Notes: generated from the letters alone by a model not told the origin. A DNA stretch of 64,000 nucleotides from Fuerstiella sp. (GCA_029245955.1 JAQWOH010000043.1:261365-325364), one strand, 5' to 3'. Shown: positions 4,798-47,230, counted from the stretch's first letter. Program-made: numbers and translations.

Positions 4798-6300
4798 TTA
4801 CAAAGCCAGGCTCAGCAGCCGTTCTTCGATTTCGTGGATCACATCAGCAACGGTGCGACCGCGACACGATGTCGGCAGGCTGATCGGCGAGTCGCTGTCA
4901 ATCCATAACTGCACGCGTTTTTCCGCAGCCACAACAGTACTGTGATCGCGTCCCCCGAAGTACATCCCGATTTCGCGGTAGGCCGACTTCGTCAGTTTCC
5001 GAGCGATGTACATAGCCACTGCCCGTGGGCAGCTCACCGCTTTGCGACGTGATTTTGAACGCAGATCGGCAGTCGTCAGACCAAACGCGTCGCAGATCAC
5101 CTTTTCAACATCACTGATGCGTACCAGTCGGCGGCACTCACGCTCCATATCTCCGAGAATTTCACGAGCACGAGAGACAGTGATTCTTTTTCCGCCGAGC
5201 TTGTAATGGCCGTGCAGGCAGTTCAGAGCCCCCTGTATTTCCCGAACATTGTTACGACACTTTATGGCGACGTAATCCAGAGCTTCCTGGGTAAAGCTCT
5301 CTCGAATCGGAAGCGCCAGCGATGCCGCGATACGACGTCGGGTTTCTTCGGAAGGACTTTCGATCCGGCATACCAGCCCGCTCATGAAACGTGTCGTCAG
5401 TTCTTCACGGTGCTTGCTCAGCAGACGGGGATGACGATCGCCGGTAATCACAAGCTGCCCGCCATGCTCGACAACCTGCACCACCGTGTGCAGGAATTCC
5501 TCCTGGGTTGCTCGCTTGTTATCAAGGAATTCAATGTTATCGACAAGCAGAACGTCCACATTTCGAAACCGCTGTCGAAACGAGGGAACAGTCCTGGAAG
5601 CCAGCGCCTGCGTAAAGTAATTCGTAAACGATTCGCTGGTCAAATACATCACATTCAGGCTGGTATGTGTTGTCTTGACTTCGCTGTATATTGCTTCCAG
5701 CAAATGGGTTTTACCGACACCTGTTGGGCCGTGGATATACAGAGGATTGAAACGTTCACCCGGAAATTCAGCAACCTGTTGCGCGGCCATCAGCGCAAGG
5801 TCATTGCACTCGCCCGACATCAGACCCGCAAATTGTCGAAATCGCCGACGATTTGCCGGTCGTACGGCCAGGGACTGAACACCTGTAACCGAGGCTGCCA
5901 CCTTCGCAGCAGACCGAACCGCCCCGGCCACAACCGGCTGGTCCTGCACTGGAGGCATAGCGACAGCACGTTCTTCAACAACTGACACCTTATCTGTGGA
6001 AACAACCGCGGTCTGCAGCGACTCATCGACGGAAAGCTCAAACCTTCCGGCAGGCCCCAGCAGGGCGGCCGCAGCCATGCTGAACTGTGACCGAAACCGC
6101 TTCAGCAACCAGTTCGAAATGAACGGATTTGGCACATAGATGTGCAGCGTATCGCCGGTTACGGAAAACCTGCTGCGTTCGCGGAACCAGTGTTGAAAAT
6201 GTTGATCGCCAACGGCCTTTCGAATGACCGCCACGACAGGCTCAGACTCTGCGGCATGGTACGATCCCGTCGTCTTTCCCTGATCAGCGGGCTGCGTCAT
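4798..6300 (-). CDS. dnaA: Chromosomal replication initiator protein DnaA
   Basis: Walker A is GPTGVGKTHLL and Walker B is LLVDNIEFL. The box VII region is GGQLVITGDRHP. The C-terminal DNA-binding signature is AREIGMYFGGRDHSTVVAAEKRV. Length is 500 aa. Confidence 0.95.
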   Translation of the reverse strand: MTQPADQGKTTGSYHAAESEPVVAVIRKAVGDQHFQHWFRERSRFSVTGDTLHIYVPNPFISNWLLKRFRSQFSMAAAALLGPAGRFELSVDESLQTAVVSTDKVSVVEERAVAMPPVQDQPVVAGAVRSAAKVAASVTGVQSLAVRPANRRRFRQFAGLMSGECNDLALMAAQQVAEFPGERFNPLYIHGPTGVGKTHLLEAIYSEVKTTHTSLNVMYLTSESFTNYFTQALASRTVPSFRQRFRNVDVLLVDNIEFLDNKRATQEEFLHTVVQVVEHGGQLVITGDRHPRLLSKHREELTTRFMSGLVCRIESPSEETRRRIAASLALPIRESFTQEALDYVAIKCRNNVREIQGALNCLHGHYKLGGKRITVSRAREILGDMERECRRLVRISDVEKVICDAFGLTTADLRSKSRRKAVSCPRAVAMYIARKLTKSAYREIGMYFGGRDHSTVVAAEKRVQLWIDSDSPISLPTSCRGRTVADVIHEIEERLLSLAL

Positions 6301-33647: not shown

Positions 33648-33720
33648 GGCGCGGTAGCCAAGTGGCTAAGGCAATGGATTGCAAATCCATGTACCGCGGG
33701 TTCGAATCCCGCCCGCGCCT
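33648..33720 (+). tRNA. tRNA-Cys (anticodon GCA)
   Basis: The cloverleaf was read directly. The acceptor stem is GGCGCGG/CCGCGCC. The D arm is GCCAAGTGGCTAAGGC. The anticodon stem-loop is TGGAT-TGCAAAT-CCA. The T arm is GCGGG-TTCGAAT-CCCGC. The discriminator is U. CCA is not encoded. Confidence 0.95.
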
Positions 33721-33723
33721 CTT

Positions 33724-45360: not shown

Positions 45361-45800
45361 TCAAAATGCCTCCTGTGTTGGTCACCTGATCGTTCAGGGA
45401 GATTCGAAACAGTATAAACGAAGAACGCCTGAACTGTTTGGAGGTCCAGTAGCGAGTCATTCGAGTGGCAAGTCTAGTCAGGGCATTGCCCTGTTTCCAC
45501 TTGGCTGGTACCTGGACGTGAACAATTCGAAACGATGGCGTCGAGACACCGCCGCTTTTCTGAAAACAGCCCTGAATTGGCGATTTTTCTGGGAATATCC
45601 ACCAATGCGGCGACCTGCTACAAGGGAAACCCCGTCGCCCTGAGCTCGCCATGCGATCAGTGCGCAATCAATAAAGTGAGCCACCGGGCGTTATCGAGCA
45701 CTACCTGCAGCCGAGCATCTGAACAGCCAGAATCCCCTTCAGCGGCGAAAATTCGCTGGTGCAGGGCCTGTGTACAGACGGCCGATTCGTGCGCTCTGCC

Positions 45801-46328
45801 TCAACCTTCCAGTTTACGCAGCACCTTCAGCAGCTCGTCGGCCGTGGCTCGATCTCTGAGCGTGCCATCGATGATCGCCTGCACGTTGCCCTTGCGGTCA
45901 ATGACAAAGTTGTCGAATGTCATTCTCTTTGTGCTGTACGCTTTGGTCGATTTCTTATCCAGATCAAAGGTCAGCGTGAATCCGGTCTTTGTCCTGTCCT
46001 TGATCTTCCTCAATCCATCCACGCCGGACTTCTCTTCACGAAACACGAATATCATTTCGGTGTGCAATGTCTTGAAATCGTCGGCCTGTTTTTGCAGCTG
46101 AACCAGCTGCCTCATGCAGTGAGGTCACCAGTTCGCCCGACTGAACATCAAGGCGATGTTCCTGTCGCCGGCCTTCAACTTGTCAGACAGTTTGAACGTC
46201 TTGCCATCGATCCCGGTCACAGTGAAGTCCGGTGCAGGCTGTCCGATCTTTACGATCGCAGGCTCGTCCGCAAGTACGGTTGTGGCAAATCCAATCGCGG
46301 TGAATGCGAGTACGCTTCTGGCGAACAT
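45801..46328 (-). CDS. Secreted thioredoxin-fold (TlpA/ResA/AhpC-TSA-like) protein with in-frame TGA at the first redox Cys: probable selenoprotein (U-P-H-C)
   Basis: Track ORFs 46125..46328 and 45801..46115 are in the same frame. They are separated only by TGA-CCT-CAC-TGC. Joined, they read ...GQPAPDFTVTGIDGKTFKLSDKLKAGDRNIALMFSRANW-[TGA]-PHC-MRQLVQLQKQADDF...FVIDRKGNV..., a complete redoxin fold. The signal peptide is MFARSVLAFTAIGFATTVLA. Confidence 0.75.
46094..46110 (-). promoter_or_regulatory. Candidate bacterial SECIS hairpin
   Basis: The mRNA forms GCAGCUG-GUU-CAGCUGC, a perfect 7-bp stem starting 14 nt after the UGA at 46125..46127. The apical loop contains G/U about 21 nt from the UGA. 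Confidence 0.5.
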
Positions 46329-46390
46329 CTGTCAGAGCCTTCCTGTGAACACGGAGAGTTGAAATATCCCGAGACATTCTATGAATGTAT

Positions 46391-46420
46391 TTGGGCTGCA
46401 GACAGTTGGGCTGCAGACAG
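46391..46420. repeat. Perfect 15-bp tandem direct repeat (x2)
   Basis: TTGGGCTGCAGACAG TTGGGCTGCAGACAG, read directly. It is intergenic, 63 nt upstream of the redoxin start codon. Each unit contains the palindrome CTGCAG. Confidence 0.9.
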
Positions 46421-46540
46421 TCAGCGAAACCACAAAACCCGTGGGAAACATGCCGGAATCGCTGCAAGGTCCCTCGCATTCACGACGTCGATCGACCTGG
46501 ACGAAGGCGAATGTCCGGCACGGCCAGGCATTGCTGCTGC

Positions 46541-47230
46541 TTACGCCGCCTTGCGTTCATTTTTTCCGGCCACGTTTCTCAGACGGTATTCGATAGCATT
46601 ACCCTGCTTGCCGCACGCCTCAATGAATTCCATCTTTCTGAAACAGTAGGCCGCTTTCTGCGCCAGCCAGCGTGGCATGTGGCCCTGTTCCGCGATCTGC
46701 GCTGTTGTGAACGTATCCGGCACTGCCATCTGCAGGGTCGTCCAGAGCTCGTCAGGTGTTCTGAACGAATGTGATTCGTTAACGCTGACGAGCGTGCGAT
46801 CCTGAACGCTGAACTTTCTTCGCCACGTGCGTTTCCGGGGTGGAACGCGAATCTCTTCCTGTTCAGTCAGCAGGACGTCCAGCTGCAGATTGGGGTGTGG
46901 AAATGCCTGCGTAAAATGCACCAACTCCAGAAAGACATCCGCCAGCGTCTGGTGAGCCGGACTGTATCGACGGCTCTGAACTTTGCCATTTCGGCGAACT
47001 TTCTTCAGCAGCTTTTTCTTTGCCGCCAGCGGTTTAACAACGACAACCTGATGGTGCTTCGTCAGTTTGCGGATCTTGTCACGAATCGCCAGCAGTGAGG
47101 CACATTGGATCTCAATCAACCGCTCCCGCTCGTCAATGGCATCAATACGAAAACCATCGACTTCGACTTCGTGTCGGTGTACGTCTGCCACATAGTGCAG
47201 TTTCAGTTGTTGGTGAAGCGACGTGGCCAT
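46541..47230 (-). CDS. Putative PD-(D/E)XK nuclease-fold protein (CoiA-like H...D...E-x-Q motif)
   Basis: The N-terminus HQQLKLHYVADVHRHEVEVDGFRIDAIDERERLIEIQCASL resembles the CoiA-type nuclease core (H, D, EIQcS). The rest is basic (KKKLLKKVRRNGK). The family call is by eye only. Confidence 0.45.
   Translation of the reverse strand: MATSLHQQLKLHYVADVHRHEVEVDGFRIDAIDERERLIEIQCASLLAIRDKIRKLTKHHQVVVVKPLAAKKKLLKKVRRNGKVQSRRYSPAHQTLADVFLELVHFTQAFPHPNLQLDVLLTEQEEIRVPPRKRTWRRKFSVQDRTLVSVNESHSFRTPDELWTTLQMAVPDTFTTAQIAEQGHMPRWLAQKAAYCFRKMEFIEACGKQGNAIEYRLRNVAGKNERKAA

What the first reader, a model, noticed from the sequence alone, without database searches (positions are those of the whole stretch)
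45801..46328. In-frame TGA at the first Cys of a W-C-x-x-C redoxin motif: probable selenocysteine (U-P-H-C) protein split into two ORFs by the track
The minus-strand ORFs 46125..46328 (67 aa) and 45801..46115 (104 aa) share a frame (46328-46115 = 213 = 71 x 3). They are separated only by TGA CCT CAC TGC. Neither half is a complete fold.

The upstream half has a signal peptide, the substrate-side strand GQPAPDFTVTGIDGKTFKLSD and ...IALMFSRANW. The downstream half starts with the helix after the active site and carries the rest of a TlpA/ResA/AhpC-TSA-type thioredoxin fold (...NFVIDRKGNVQAII...). Read through, the junction is W-[UGA]-P-H-C, so the stop replaces the nucleophilic Cys exactly. This is the standard signature of bacterial selenoproteins of this fold.

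Fourteen nt after the UGA the mRNA forms a perfect 7-bp hairpin GCAGCUG-GUU-CAGCUGC (46094..46110). Its G/U-containing apical loop is ~21 nt from the UGA, compatible with a bacterial SECIS element.
Basis: partly seen in the sequence, partly recalled or inferred. Interest (0 to 1): 0.75.

Follow-up and report, generated by a model that had tools for sequence, protein, structure and literature searches.

The report
Selenocysteine redoxin gene split by annotation
The two short minus-strand ORFs are one gene for an exported thioredoxin-fold redox protein whose active-site cysteine is replaced by selenocysteine, encoded by UGA and served by a conserved RNA hairpin; this is a well-supported but ordinary new member of a known kind of bacterial selenoprotein that databases routinely mis-annotate as two fragments.

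Summary
On the minus strand, ORFs 46125..46328 and 45801..46115 share a frame and are joined by TGA-CCT-CAC-TGC, reading W-[UGA]-P-H-C.

- **One domain.** Read through, the 175-aa product covers the whole AhpC/TSA Pfam profile as a single domain.
- **Conserved TGA.** The TGA sits at the same column in 23 distinct planctomycete relatives (42-96 % identity). Older Cys-type homologues carry TGT or TGC there.
- **Selection.** Both halves are under equal purifying selection (dN/dS 0.17 and 0.14).
- **Hairpin.** The 7-bp hairpin at 46094..46110 is conserved. Pair 21-31 is A-U in 11, G-C in 10 and G-U in 2 sequences, never A·C. Synonymous variation is lowest there, the loop is an invariant GGUY like E. 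coli fdhF's GGUC, and long-standing Cys-type homologues have lost the hairpin.
- **tRNA-Sec.** In nine related lineages a tRNA-Sec gene lies just upstream of the orthologous gene.
- **Gap.** The window holds no sel genes, so the machinery in this genome is inferred.
- **Decay.** Two relatives carry decayed copies.

It belongs to the known "Prx-like, UxxC" selenoprotein kind, so it is a new member and not a new mechanism.

The parts
45801..46328 (-). Complete selenoprotein coding sequence: 175 codons plus the terminal TGA at 45801..45803. It reads ATG...W-U-P-H-C-M...LEG.
   Evidence: Searches give the frame. One search shows AhpC-TSA positions 1-123 of 124 (E 2.4e-19) for the read-through product. 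One search gives dN/dS of 0.17 upstream and 0.14 downstream of the TGA.
46125..46127 (-). In-frame UGA, read as the Sec codon. It replaces the N-terminal Cys of W-C-x-x-C and is always followed by C (UGA-C).
   Evidence: Searches show TGA at this column in 23 distinct relatives, and TGT/TGC in the Cys-type L025, L036, L037 and L004. One search shows UGAC in 23 of 23. One search aligns it with the first Cys of the CxxC in ResA.
46116..46118 (-). Resolving Cys codon (UGC) of the U-P-H-C motif. In the two-ORF annotation it lies in the 9-nt 'spacer'.
   Evidence: TGC in 19 of 19 sequences, never TGT, and always in frame. That is unexplained if these 9 nt were untranslated.
46094..46110 (-). Apical SECIS hairpin GCAGCUG-GUU-CAGCUGC, nt +18..+34 from the U of UGA. 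The loop G25-U26 is at 46103..46102.
   Evidence: 91.9 % of cells pair, against 0.6-40 % with slid partners. Pair 21-31 is AU 11, GC 10, GU 2, AC 0. Pair 22-30 is CG 22, UA 1. RNAalifold predicts the same stem; at least 6 state changes on the tree; rank 1 of 119 control column pairs. GGUY loop in all sequences, and the hairpin is lost in old Cys-type loci.
46083..46118 (-). Possible interrupted lower stem of the SECIS, nt +10..+16 pairing with +39..+45. In the window only 4 of 7 pairs form.
   Evidence: pairs 11-44, 12-43, 14-41 and 15-40 form in 18-23 of 23 sequences, but there is no two-sided covariation. Inconclusive.
46269..46328 (-). Signal-peptide-like N-terminus (MFARSVLAFTAIGFATTVLA|DE). 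The protein is predicted to be exported.
   Evidence: Read directly from the sequence. A similar hydrophobic N-terminus ending ..A-D/E-E/D is present in most homologues. The nearest solved relatives are periplasmic/extracytoplasmic ResA/TlpA/DsbE proteins. No signal-peptide predictor was available.
46338..46343 (-). Shine-Dalgarno-like GGAAGG, 9 nt before the ATG at 46328. There is no such element before the internal ATG at 46115.
   Evidence: One search gives the sequence. One search shows ACAGGAAGG conserved in all 7 Fuerstiella-clade loci.
46376..46381 (-). Conserved TAGAAT, a candidate -10 element of the gene's own promoter. This is inferred.
   Evidence: invariant in 7 Fuerstiella-clade upstream regions that otherwise diverge. 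The consensus promoter scan found nothing.

Best explanation
Window 45801..46328 (minus strand) is a single gene. It encodes a 175-residue exported thioredoxin-fold redox protein of the Prx-like / TlpA-ResA-like type, with the active site W-U-P-H-C.

**How the UGA is decoded.** The UGA at 46127..46125 is decoded as selenocysteine. As the ribosome reaches it, SelB·GTP·Sec-tRNA(Sec) is tethered by the mRNA hairpin at +18..+34. The hairpin's apical G-G-U-Y loop presents the G-U that SelB recognises. The weak UGA-C termination context lets Sec insertion outcompete RF2.

**How the protein works.** After export, the selenolate at the N-cap of the active-site helix is the attacking nucleophile. It forms a selenenylsulfide with Cys+3 during thiol-disulfide exchange or hydroperoxide reduction.

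**What is shown.**
- One reading frame and one protein domain.
- UGA at the Cys column.
- Conservation and purifying selection on both sides of the UGA.
- A conserved, covarying hairpin.
- tRNA-Sec next to orthologous genes in relatives.

**What is inferred.**
- SelA, SelB, SelC and SelD in this particular genome.
- Actual selenium incorporation.
- Export of the protein.
- The substrate.
For: 1. **One domain.** The read-through product matches Pfam AhpC-TSA positions 1-123 of 124 (E 2.4e-19) and Redoxin. In the AlphaFold model of the Cys homologue P0001 (pLDDT 89.7), Cys67 sits at the N-cap of helix 68-78, just after strand 56-62. The best structural matches are Bcp1 (TM 0.75/0.89) and ResA.
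2. **Same split in the databases.** Sixty-three close relatives in the database are C-terminal halves of 99-125 aa, and only two are full-length, both with Cys. In the 23 distinct intact loci whose DNA was read, TGA is at the same column, with x-x = PH, PF, QF or RF.
3. **Cys in homologues.** F. marisgermanici (L036), L037 and L025 have TGT or TGC at that column. In ResA the column is the first Cys of CxxC.
4. **Selection.** Median dN/dS is 0.17 upstream and 0.14 downstream of the TGA.
5. **Not two genes.** L008 has ATT where the 'downstream ORF' needs its ATG. That Met is also conserved in the Cys forms. The 9-nt 'spacer' always encodes x-x-Cys in frame.
6. **Hairpin pairing.** 91.9 % of cells pair, against at most 40 % with slid partners. 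There are compensatory changes at two pairs, and 0 of 500 shuffles reach the covariation score. RNAalifold predicts the same stem. The tree implies at least 6 independent state changes and no A·C.
7. **Hairpin constraint.** The pair ranks 1st of 119 synonymous control column pairs, so GC3 bias does not explain it. Synonymous divergence is the lowest in the gene at codons +3..+9, at 0.29 against a median of 0.54.
8. **Loop and context.** The GGUY loop and the UGA-C context are present in 23 of 23 sequences. Old Cys-type loci have lost the hairpin (0 to -1.2 kcal/mol, against a Sec-type mean of -7.5). The E. coli fdhF SECIS loop is GGUC at +22..+25.
9. **tRNA-Sec.** A tRNA-Sec gene (Rfam RF01852, 70-75 bits, gathering score 47) lies 317-555 nt upstream of the UGA in L002, L016, L018, L019, L020/21, L022, L024, L027-29 and L041.
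10. **UGA is a normal stop here.** Eighteen of the 33 complete large ORFs in the window end in TGA.
11. **Literature.** Prx-like UXXC selenoproteins are a known family (PMC1088965, PMC1794560). Sec machinery and an AhpC/TSA selenoprotein candidate are reported in Planctomycetes (PMC4807772).
Against: - **No machinery seen.** No selA, selB, selD or tRNA-Sec is visible in the 64-kb window. The machinery in this genome is therefore unshown. In the Fuerstiella clade, selC is not adjacent to the gene.
- **Hairpin energy.** The hairpin's folding energy alone is no better than that of shuffled sequences.
- **No Rfam match.** No Rfam family matches the element.
- **Decayed copies.** L004 has TGC plus an in-frame TAG. 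L027-29 have two frameshifts. The gene is therefore dispensable or lost in some lineages.
- **Phylogenetic inertia.** It can generate large column associations: 3 of the 119 control pairs reach |phi| of at least 0.8, all in the negative direction.
- **No experiment.** There is no evidence of selenium incorporation.
Confidence: 0.9

Rival explanations
1. Non-Sec read-through. The UGA is conserved and translated, but a near-cognate tRNA (Trp, Cys or Arg) fills it at a leaky UGA-C. The hairpin acts only as a generic read-through or pausing stimulator. Alternatively, this particular genome has lost the Sec machinery, so the gene is now poorly expressed.
For: No sel genes or tRNA-Sec are seen in the window. 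UGA-C is known to be a leaky context (own knowledge). The close relative L004 has converted to TGC.
Against: The loop motif G-G-U-Y matches the SelB-binding loop of fdhF. tRNA-Sec is physically linked to the orthologous gene in nine lineages. The column is the redox-active Cys, where only Cys or Sec would give an active enzyme. The hairpin is lost as soon as Cys is fixed for a long time.
Confidence: 0.05
2. Pseudogene. The TGA is a nonsense mutation in a former Cys codon (TGC or TGT to TGA), and the gene is dead.
For: A single base change from a Cys codon gives TGA. Two related loci do show decay.
Against: TGA is at the same column in 23 distinct lineages down to 42 % identity. Purifying selection is strong and equal on both sides, with dN/dS 0.17 and 0.14. 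Synonymous sites are constrained just downstream.
Confidence: 0.02
3. Split protein. Two separate polypeptides, a 67-aa exported N-fragment and a 104-aa C-fragment, are translated independently and assemble.
For: An ATG follows 9 nt after the TGA in 22 of 23 loci, and gene callers predict two ORFs everywhere.
Against: L008 has ATT at that position. The Met is also conserved inside full-length Cys homologues. No SD-like element precedes it, whereas GGAAGG precedes the first ATG. The 9-nt 'spacer' always encodes x-x-Cys in frame with an invariant UGC. The C-fragment would lack a signal peptide and both active-site residues. The split falls inside the active site.
Confidence: 0.02
4. UGA is reassigned to a standard amino acid in this organism, as in Mycoplasma or Gracilibacteria.
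For: None beyond the in-frame UGA itself.
Against: Eighteen of the 33 complete large ORFs in the window terminate at TGA with normal protein lengths and full Pfam coverage. No other credible in-frame TGA gene is present in the window.
Confidence: 0.01

Closest known systems
'Prx-like protein' / 'Prx-like thiol:disulfide oxidoreductase' selenoprotein family (Zhang, Fomenko and Gladyshev 2005, PMC1088965; Zhang et al. 2006, PMC1794560)
   Same: It has distant homology to peroxiredoxins (AhpC/TSA). It carries a thioredoxin-like U-x-x-C motif instead of the T-x-x-U of Sec-peroxiredoxins. It has a bacterial SECIS directly after the UGA, Cys homologues in other species, and a mostly marine or environmental distribution.
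   Different: Orthology to the published members was not tested, because no reference sequences were at hand. This clade is planctomycete and carries a signal peptide. The W-U-P-H/F-C motif and the tRNA-Sec linkage are features I did not find described.
Planctomycete selenoprotein candidates of Kim et al. 2016 (PMC4807772, Table S9): 'alkyl hydroperoxide reductase/TSA/Mal allergen', 'peroxiredoxin' and 'thiol-disulfide isomerase-like thioredoxin' in strain P1
   Same: Same phylum, same superfamily, a SECIS was predicted, and each candidate is annotated as two adjacent genes in IMG. The same study documents selA, selB, selC and selD in Planctomycetes.
   Different: It is a different genus (here a Fuerstiella-like genome). 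Identity to those genes is unknown, because only IMG identifiers are given.
B. subtilis ResA / TlpA / CcmG(DsbE) extracytoplasmic thiol-disulfide oxidoreductases
   Same: These are the best sequence matches among solved structures (ResA, E 1e-9). They share the W-C-x-x-C register, extracytoplasmic location and fold.
   Different: Here Sec replaces the attacking Cys. The score is far below NCBIfam's ResA cut-off (55.9 against 170 bits). The position of ResA's cis-Pro aligns to Thr of a conserved T-F-D-N. The overall fold superposes slightly better on BCP-type peroxiredoxins.
E. coli fdhF bacterial SECIS
   Same: The hairpin lies inside the coding region immediately 3' of UGA. The apical loop is G-G-U-C, with a conserved G-U about 20 nt from the UGA.
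   Different: The loop is 2 nt further from the UGA (G25-U26 against G23-U24). No bulged U is evident in the upper stem. The lower stem is weak and unproven.

Membership tests
Bacterial selenoprotein gene (Sec-UGA plus bSECIS) | In-frame UGA aligned with a redox-active Cys in homologues | tested here: met
   Searches show TGT or TGC in L036, L037, L025 and L004 at the same column. One search shows it is the first Cys of CxxC in ResA.
Bacterial selenoprotein gene (Sec-UGA plus bSECIS) | UGA conserved among orthologues, with coding constraint on both sides | tested here: met
   Twenty-three distinct loci carry it. dN/dS is 0.17 upstream and 0.14 downstream.
Bacterial selenoprotein gene (Sec-UGA plus bSECIS) | Stem-loop immediately downstream of UGA with a small apical loop containing G (PMC1088965) | tested here: met
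   Searches show a 6-7 bp stem at +18..+34, a loop G(G)UY, compensatory changes and synonymous constraint. Single-sequence energy alone is not significant.
Bacterial selenoprotein gene (Sec-UGA plus bSECIS) | selA, selB, selC (tRNA-Sec) and selD present in the same genome | tested here: inconclusive
   None is in the 64-kb window. tRNA-Sec is adjacent to the orthologous gene in nine related lineages.
Bacterial selenoprotein gene (Sec-UGA plus bSECIS) | Selenium actually incorporated (75Se labelling or MS) | not testable with these tools
   This is an experimental test.
Prx-like UxxC selenoprotein family (Zhang and Gladyshev) | Homology to Prx/AhpC-TSA combined with a thioredoxin-like U-x-x-C motif, not T-x-x-U | tested here: met
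   One search gives AhpC-TSA at E 2.4e-19. The junction reads W-U-P-H-C. In the alignment to Bcp 3drn, U falls on the Thr of T-x-x-Cp.
Prx-like UxxC selenoprotein family (Zhang and Gladyshev) | Orthology to the published members (Geobacter, Desulfotalea, Sargasso sequences) | not tested
Peroxiredoxin proper (AhpC/BCP/Tpx) | P-x-x-x-T/S-x-x-Cp active-site motif | tested here: not met
   The sequence is S-R-A-N-W-U-P-H-C. Arg replaces the Pro, and Sec replaces the Thr.
Peroxiredoxin proper (AhpC/BCP/Tpx) | Conserved catalytic Arg before the T-F-V-I-D strand | tested here: inconclusive
   In the HMMER alignment to 3drn, the Arg position falls in a gap or at Phe. The family has a variable K/R-x-M-T-F-D-N stretch there.
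ResA/TlpA/CcmG thiol-disulfide oxidoreductases | W-C-x-x-C at the N-terminus of helix alpha-1 in an extracytoplasmic thioredoxin-fold domain | tested here: met
   Searches support it. The export signal was judged by inspection only.
ResA/TlpA/CcmG thiol-disulfide oxidoreductases | Score above the curated family cut-off (NCBIfam NF002854 ResA) | tested here: not met
   55.9 bits against a cut-off of 170.
ResA/TlpA/CcmG thiol-disulfide oxidoreductases | cis-Pro loop opposite the active site | tested here: inconclusive
   In the sequence alignment, ResA's Pro aligns with Thr of the conserved M-T-F-D-N. It was not examined in 3D.

The most novel reading that the evidence does not exclude
The divergent pair of tRNA-Sec (selC) and this UxxC redoxin gene, seen in three separate branches of the family tree, is an ancestral planctomycete 'Sec module'. 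In this reading, the exported redoxin is the anchor selenoprotein that maintains the Sec-decoding trait in marine Planctomycetes. This is the role attributed to FdhA near the sel operon in Proteobacteria. The two genes may also share a regulatory intergenic region. The Fuerstiella clade, which includes this window, would have lost the linkage secondarily.
Probability: 0.25. Interest if true: 0.45.

Novelty: new member of a known kind. Interest (0 to 1): 0.3.

Why it matters
**Annotation.** Every database entry found for this clade is a fragment. There are about 63 C-terminal halves named 'peroxiredoxin' or 'redoxin domain-containing protein', while the N-terminal halves are mostly uncalled. 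The true protein, its active site and its export signal are therefore invisible to annotation-based studies.

**Biology.** Recognising it adds a conserved exported selenoprotein to marine Planctomycetes (Fuerstiella, Rubripirellula and relatives). It implies that these organisms need selenium. It also gives a clean natural series (Sec forms, recent Cys forms and old Cys forms) for studying Sec/Cys exchange and SECIS decay.

**Limits.** It does not reveal a new mechanism.

Tried and rejected
- **Single-sequence folding.** The 68-nt stretch gave z = 0.02, which is uninformative for a short coding-region hairpin.
- **Rfam.** The gathering scan of the window and a permissive scan of 45950..46250 gave no SECIS-type match. 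The only hit was a chance lncRNA match at E 0.35.
- **Linking Sec machinery to the lineage.** I searched the protein database with E. coli SelA. Only the top 120 of 8000 hits are listed, and all are enterobacterial, so this was a dead end.
- **tblastn against held DNA.** E. coli SelA and SelB against all held DNA gave no hits.
- **Extended lower stem** (+10..+16 with +39..+45). It can often pair, but there is no two-sided covariation, so I left it as inconclusive.
- **GC3 bias as an explanation for the G-C/A-U covariation.** Rejected. The hairpin pair ranks 1st of 119 control pairs, and the GC3 ranges of the two classes overlap.
- **Other in-frame TGA genes in the window.** None is credible. 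All candidates are antisense or out-of-frame ORFs, or ordinary gene ends.
- **Literature on selenocysteine in Fuerstiella.** None found.
- **NCBIfam.** No model reaches its cut-off.

Full report
**1. The observation**

On the minus strand, the 67-aa ORF 46125..46328 and the 104-aa ORF 45801..46115 are in the same frame. They are joined by TGA (46127..46125), CCT, CAC and TGC, followed by ATG. The translation reads ...MFSRANW-*-PHC-MRQLVQLQ....

The hairpin is not remarkable on its own:
- The 68-nt region folds no better than shuffles (z = 0.02).
- The window holds 60 perfect 7-bp hairpins with 3-5 nt loops.
- Only 15 of 2504 TGA triplets (0.6 %) are followed by one at 8-20 nt.

The case therefore rests on comparative evidence.

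**2. One protein domain**

With Cys substituted for the stop, the 175-aa product matches Pfam AhpC-TSA over positions 1-123 of 124 as a single stretch (E 2.4e-19). It also matches Redoxin.

Among solved structures, the best sequence matches are B. subtilis ResA, other extracytoplasmic thioredoxin-family proteins and BCP-type peroxiredoxins. The stop column aligns with the first Cys of ResA's W-C-x-x-C, and with the Thr of the peroxiredoxin T-x-x-Cp motif.

An AlphaFold model of the full-length Cys homologue P0001 (63 % identical; pLDDT 89.7) is a Prx/TlpA-type thioredoxin fold. Cys67 sits at the N-cap of helix 68-78, directly after strand 56-62. The top structural matches are Bcp1 (TM 0.75/0.89) and ResA (0.64/0.81). 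The two-ORF annotation therefore cuts the active site in half.

No NCBIfam model reaches its cut-off. ResA scores 55.9 bits against 170, and there are weak hits to SelL-related redox protein and PrxU.

**3. The TGA is conserved, and homologues have Cys there**

A database search found 63 close relatives (53-96 % identity) that are all C-terminal halves of 99-125 aa. It also found two N-terminal halves ending ...RANW or ...RAHW, and only two full-length proteins, both with W-C-P-F-C.

I fetched DNA for these and for further relatives from genomes and metagenomes.
- In 23 distinct intact loci (42-96 % identity to the window) the codon is TGA at exactly this column, with x-x = PH, PF, QF or RF.
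- Cys-type loci carry TGT or TGC: Fuerstiella marisgermanici CP017641 (L036), L037 and L025/26 (37 % identity).
- The organisms are Planctomycetota: Fuerstiella MAGs at 85-95 %, a Planctomycetaceae MAG, and Rubripirellula MAGs.
- The window's other genes fit this phylum. They include PSD/PSCyt 'planctomycete' domains, DnaA, PutA, RNase Y and SHMT.

**4. It is translated through**

- Pairwise dN/dS (NG86) has a median of 0.17 for the 42 codons upstream of the TGA and 0.14 downstream. Both halves are under equal purifying selection.
- L008 has ATT where the 'downstream ORF' would need its ATG.
- That Met is also conserved inside the full-length Cys proteins.
- The 9-nt 'spacer' always encodes x-x-Cys in frame, and the Cys codon is UGC in 19 of 19.
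- An SD-like GGAAGG precedes the first ATG and is conserved in the Fuerstiella clade. Nothing similar precedes the internal ATG.
- UGA is an ordinary stop in this genome: 18 of the 33 complete large ORFs in the window end in TGA.

**5. The hairpin is a selected RNA element**

I made a gap-free alignment of UGA..+60 from the 23 Sec-type loci (A4).

Pairing and covariation:
- The named stem pairs in 91.9 % of cells, against 0.6-40 % when partners are slid by 1-3 columns.
- Pair 21-31 is A-U in 11, G-C in 10 and G-U in 2 sequences, and never A·C.
- Pair 22-30 is C-G in 22 and U-A in 1.
- No shuffle out of 500 reaches the observed covariation score.
- RNAalifold independently predicts the same stem.

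Independence and confounds:
- All changing positions are synonymous: CAG/CAA, CUG/UUG, GAG/GAA.
- On a neighbour-joining tree built without the hairpin codons, the pair state changes at least 6 times. G·U appears as an intermediate.
- Because G-C to A-U could mimic GC3 drift, I compared all 119 column pairs of the same type (R-ending two-fold codon against Leu first position). The hairpin pair ranks first (phi 0.80), and the controls centre near zero.
- Three controls reach |phi| of at least 0.8 in the opposite direction, so phylogenetic inertia is not negligible.

Constraint, loop and decay:
- Synonymous divergence is the lowest in the whole gene at codons +3..+9, at 0.29 against a median of 0.54.
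- All 23 sequences have a loop G-G-U-Y (or A-G-G-U-C) and the context UGA-C.
- The E. coli fdhF SECIS, read from the K-12 genome, has loop G-G-U-C at +22..+25. Here the motif is at +24..+27.
- The long-standing Cys-type loci have lost the hairpin. L037 and L025 fold at 0.0 kcal/mol, and L036 at -1.2 with loop GCC. The Sec-type mean is -7.5.
- A possible lower stem (+10..+16 with +39..+45) can often form but shows no covariation.
- Rfam has no matching family.

**6. Sec machinery**

The window contains only a tRNA-Cys and no recognisable selA, selB or selD. An attempt to reach planctomycete SelA through the protein database failed.

Scanning the fetched loci, however, revealed a 95-nt tRNA-Sec (anticodon UCA). 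It lies on the opposite strand, 317-555 nt upstream of the UGA. It is present in L002, L016, L018, L019, L020/21, L022, L024, L027-29 and L041. Rfam RF01852 confirmed 8 of these loci at 70-75 bits against a gathering score of 47. L019, L021, L028 and L029 rest on ARAGORN alone.

These loci fall in three separate branches of the family tree. None of the Cys-type loci has it.

The literature supports the setting. Complete selA/B/C/D sets, and AhpC/TSA-type selenoprotein candidates annotated as two genes, are documented in other Planctomycetes (PMC4807772). Prx-like selenoproteins with a thioredoxin-like UXXC motif are an established family (PMC1088965, PMC1794560).

**7. Complications**

- **L004.** This 91 % identical Fuerstiella MAG has TGC at the column and also an in-frame TAG 29 codons downstream, where AAG has become TAG. 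Its nearest relative L044 is fully syntenic with the window. L044 has TGA and AAG. L004 is therefore an isolated decayed or mis-assembled copy.
- **L027-29.** These three assemblies of one population carry two frameshifts, the first inside the hairpin, although selC is still adjacent.

The gene can therefore be lost, which is typical of selenoproteins.

**8. Mechanism and verdict**

The best-supported reading is a single gene for an exported Prx-like / TlpA-like thiol-disulfide oxidoreductase with active site W-U-P-H-C. The UGA is decoded by SelB·Sec-tRNA(Sec), recruited by the +18..+34 hairpin, in a weak UGA-C termination context. The selenolate attacks the substrate and is resolved by Cys+3.

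- **Shown:** the frame, the domain, the column, the conservation, the selection, the RNA element, and tRNA-Sec in relatives.
- **Inferred:** the machinery in this genome, selenium incorporation, export, and the substrate. Peroxidase and disulfide-reductase activity cannot be told apart from sequence. The canonical Prx motif P-x-x-x-T-x-x-C is not met, and the ResA family cut-off is not met either.

This is a new, well-supported member of a known kind of selenoprotein.

Noticed in passing
L002:2578-2672, L016:434-528, L018:666-760, L019:213-307, L020:765-859, L022:788-882, L024:788-882, L027:767-861, L041:508-602 (all minus strand in locus coordinates): A tRNA-Sec (selC) gene lies divergently, 317-555 nt upstream of the UGA of the orthologous redoxin gene, in nine lineages from three branches of the family tree. 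It is absent from the flanks of the Fuerstiella clade, which includes the window, and from all Cys-type loci.
   Followed up: partly
L004:1501-2028: A Fuerstiella MAG 91 % identical to the window has TGC (Cys) at the Sec column and also an in-frame TAG (AAG to TAG) 29 codons downstream. The SECIS hairpin is still intact. Its closest relative L044 has TGA and AAG. This is either a decaying copy or a MAG consensus error.
   Followed up: partly
L027, L028, L029 (gene around 1165-1700): Three assemblies of one population carry the TGA gene with two frameshifts: a 1-nt insertion in the 3' arm of the hairpin, and a second shift about 50 codons later that restores the frame. tRNA-Sec is still adjacent, so this looks like a recently decayed copy.
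   Followed up: partly
window 46391-46421: There is a perfect tandem duplication of a 15-nt unit (TTGGGCTGCAGACAG on the plus strand), about 65-95 nt upstream of the gene's ATG. It is present only in the window and its 95 % relative L003. The other Fuerstiella-clade loci have one copy.
   Followed up: partly
L002:3335-4273 and L041:1323-2255: In two relatives a UbiA-family prenyltransferase gene overlaps or abuts the stop of the redoxin gene. In L002 it is followed by a radical-SAM CofH-like gene, which suggests a quinone-biosynthesis operon context. This arrangement is not conserved in the window.
   Followed up: no
window 46541-47230 (minus strand): A 229-aa ORF lies directly upstream of the selenoprotein gene. 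Its orthologues in L044 and in the Cys-type locus L037 carry a precomputed PF26351 (DUF8091) hit. My Pfam scan at E of at most 1e-5 found nothing for the window copy. The gene pair is syntenic across Sec- and Cys-type loci.
   Followed up: no
window 45759-46649 (plus strand): A 296-aa antisense ORF spans the whole selenoprotein gene. It is most likely spurious, but it is longer than either sense fragment and could mislead gene callers.
   Followed up: no
window 33648-33721 (plus strand): The only tRNA in the window is tRNA-Cys (GCA) (ARAGORN, and Rfam at 71.7 bits).
   Followed up: yes
window 4798-6300 (minus strand): A DnaA gene (Bac_DnaA, DnaA_N and DnaA_C domains) is present, so the window may lie near the chromosomal replication origin.
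   Followed up: no
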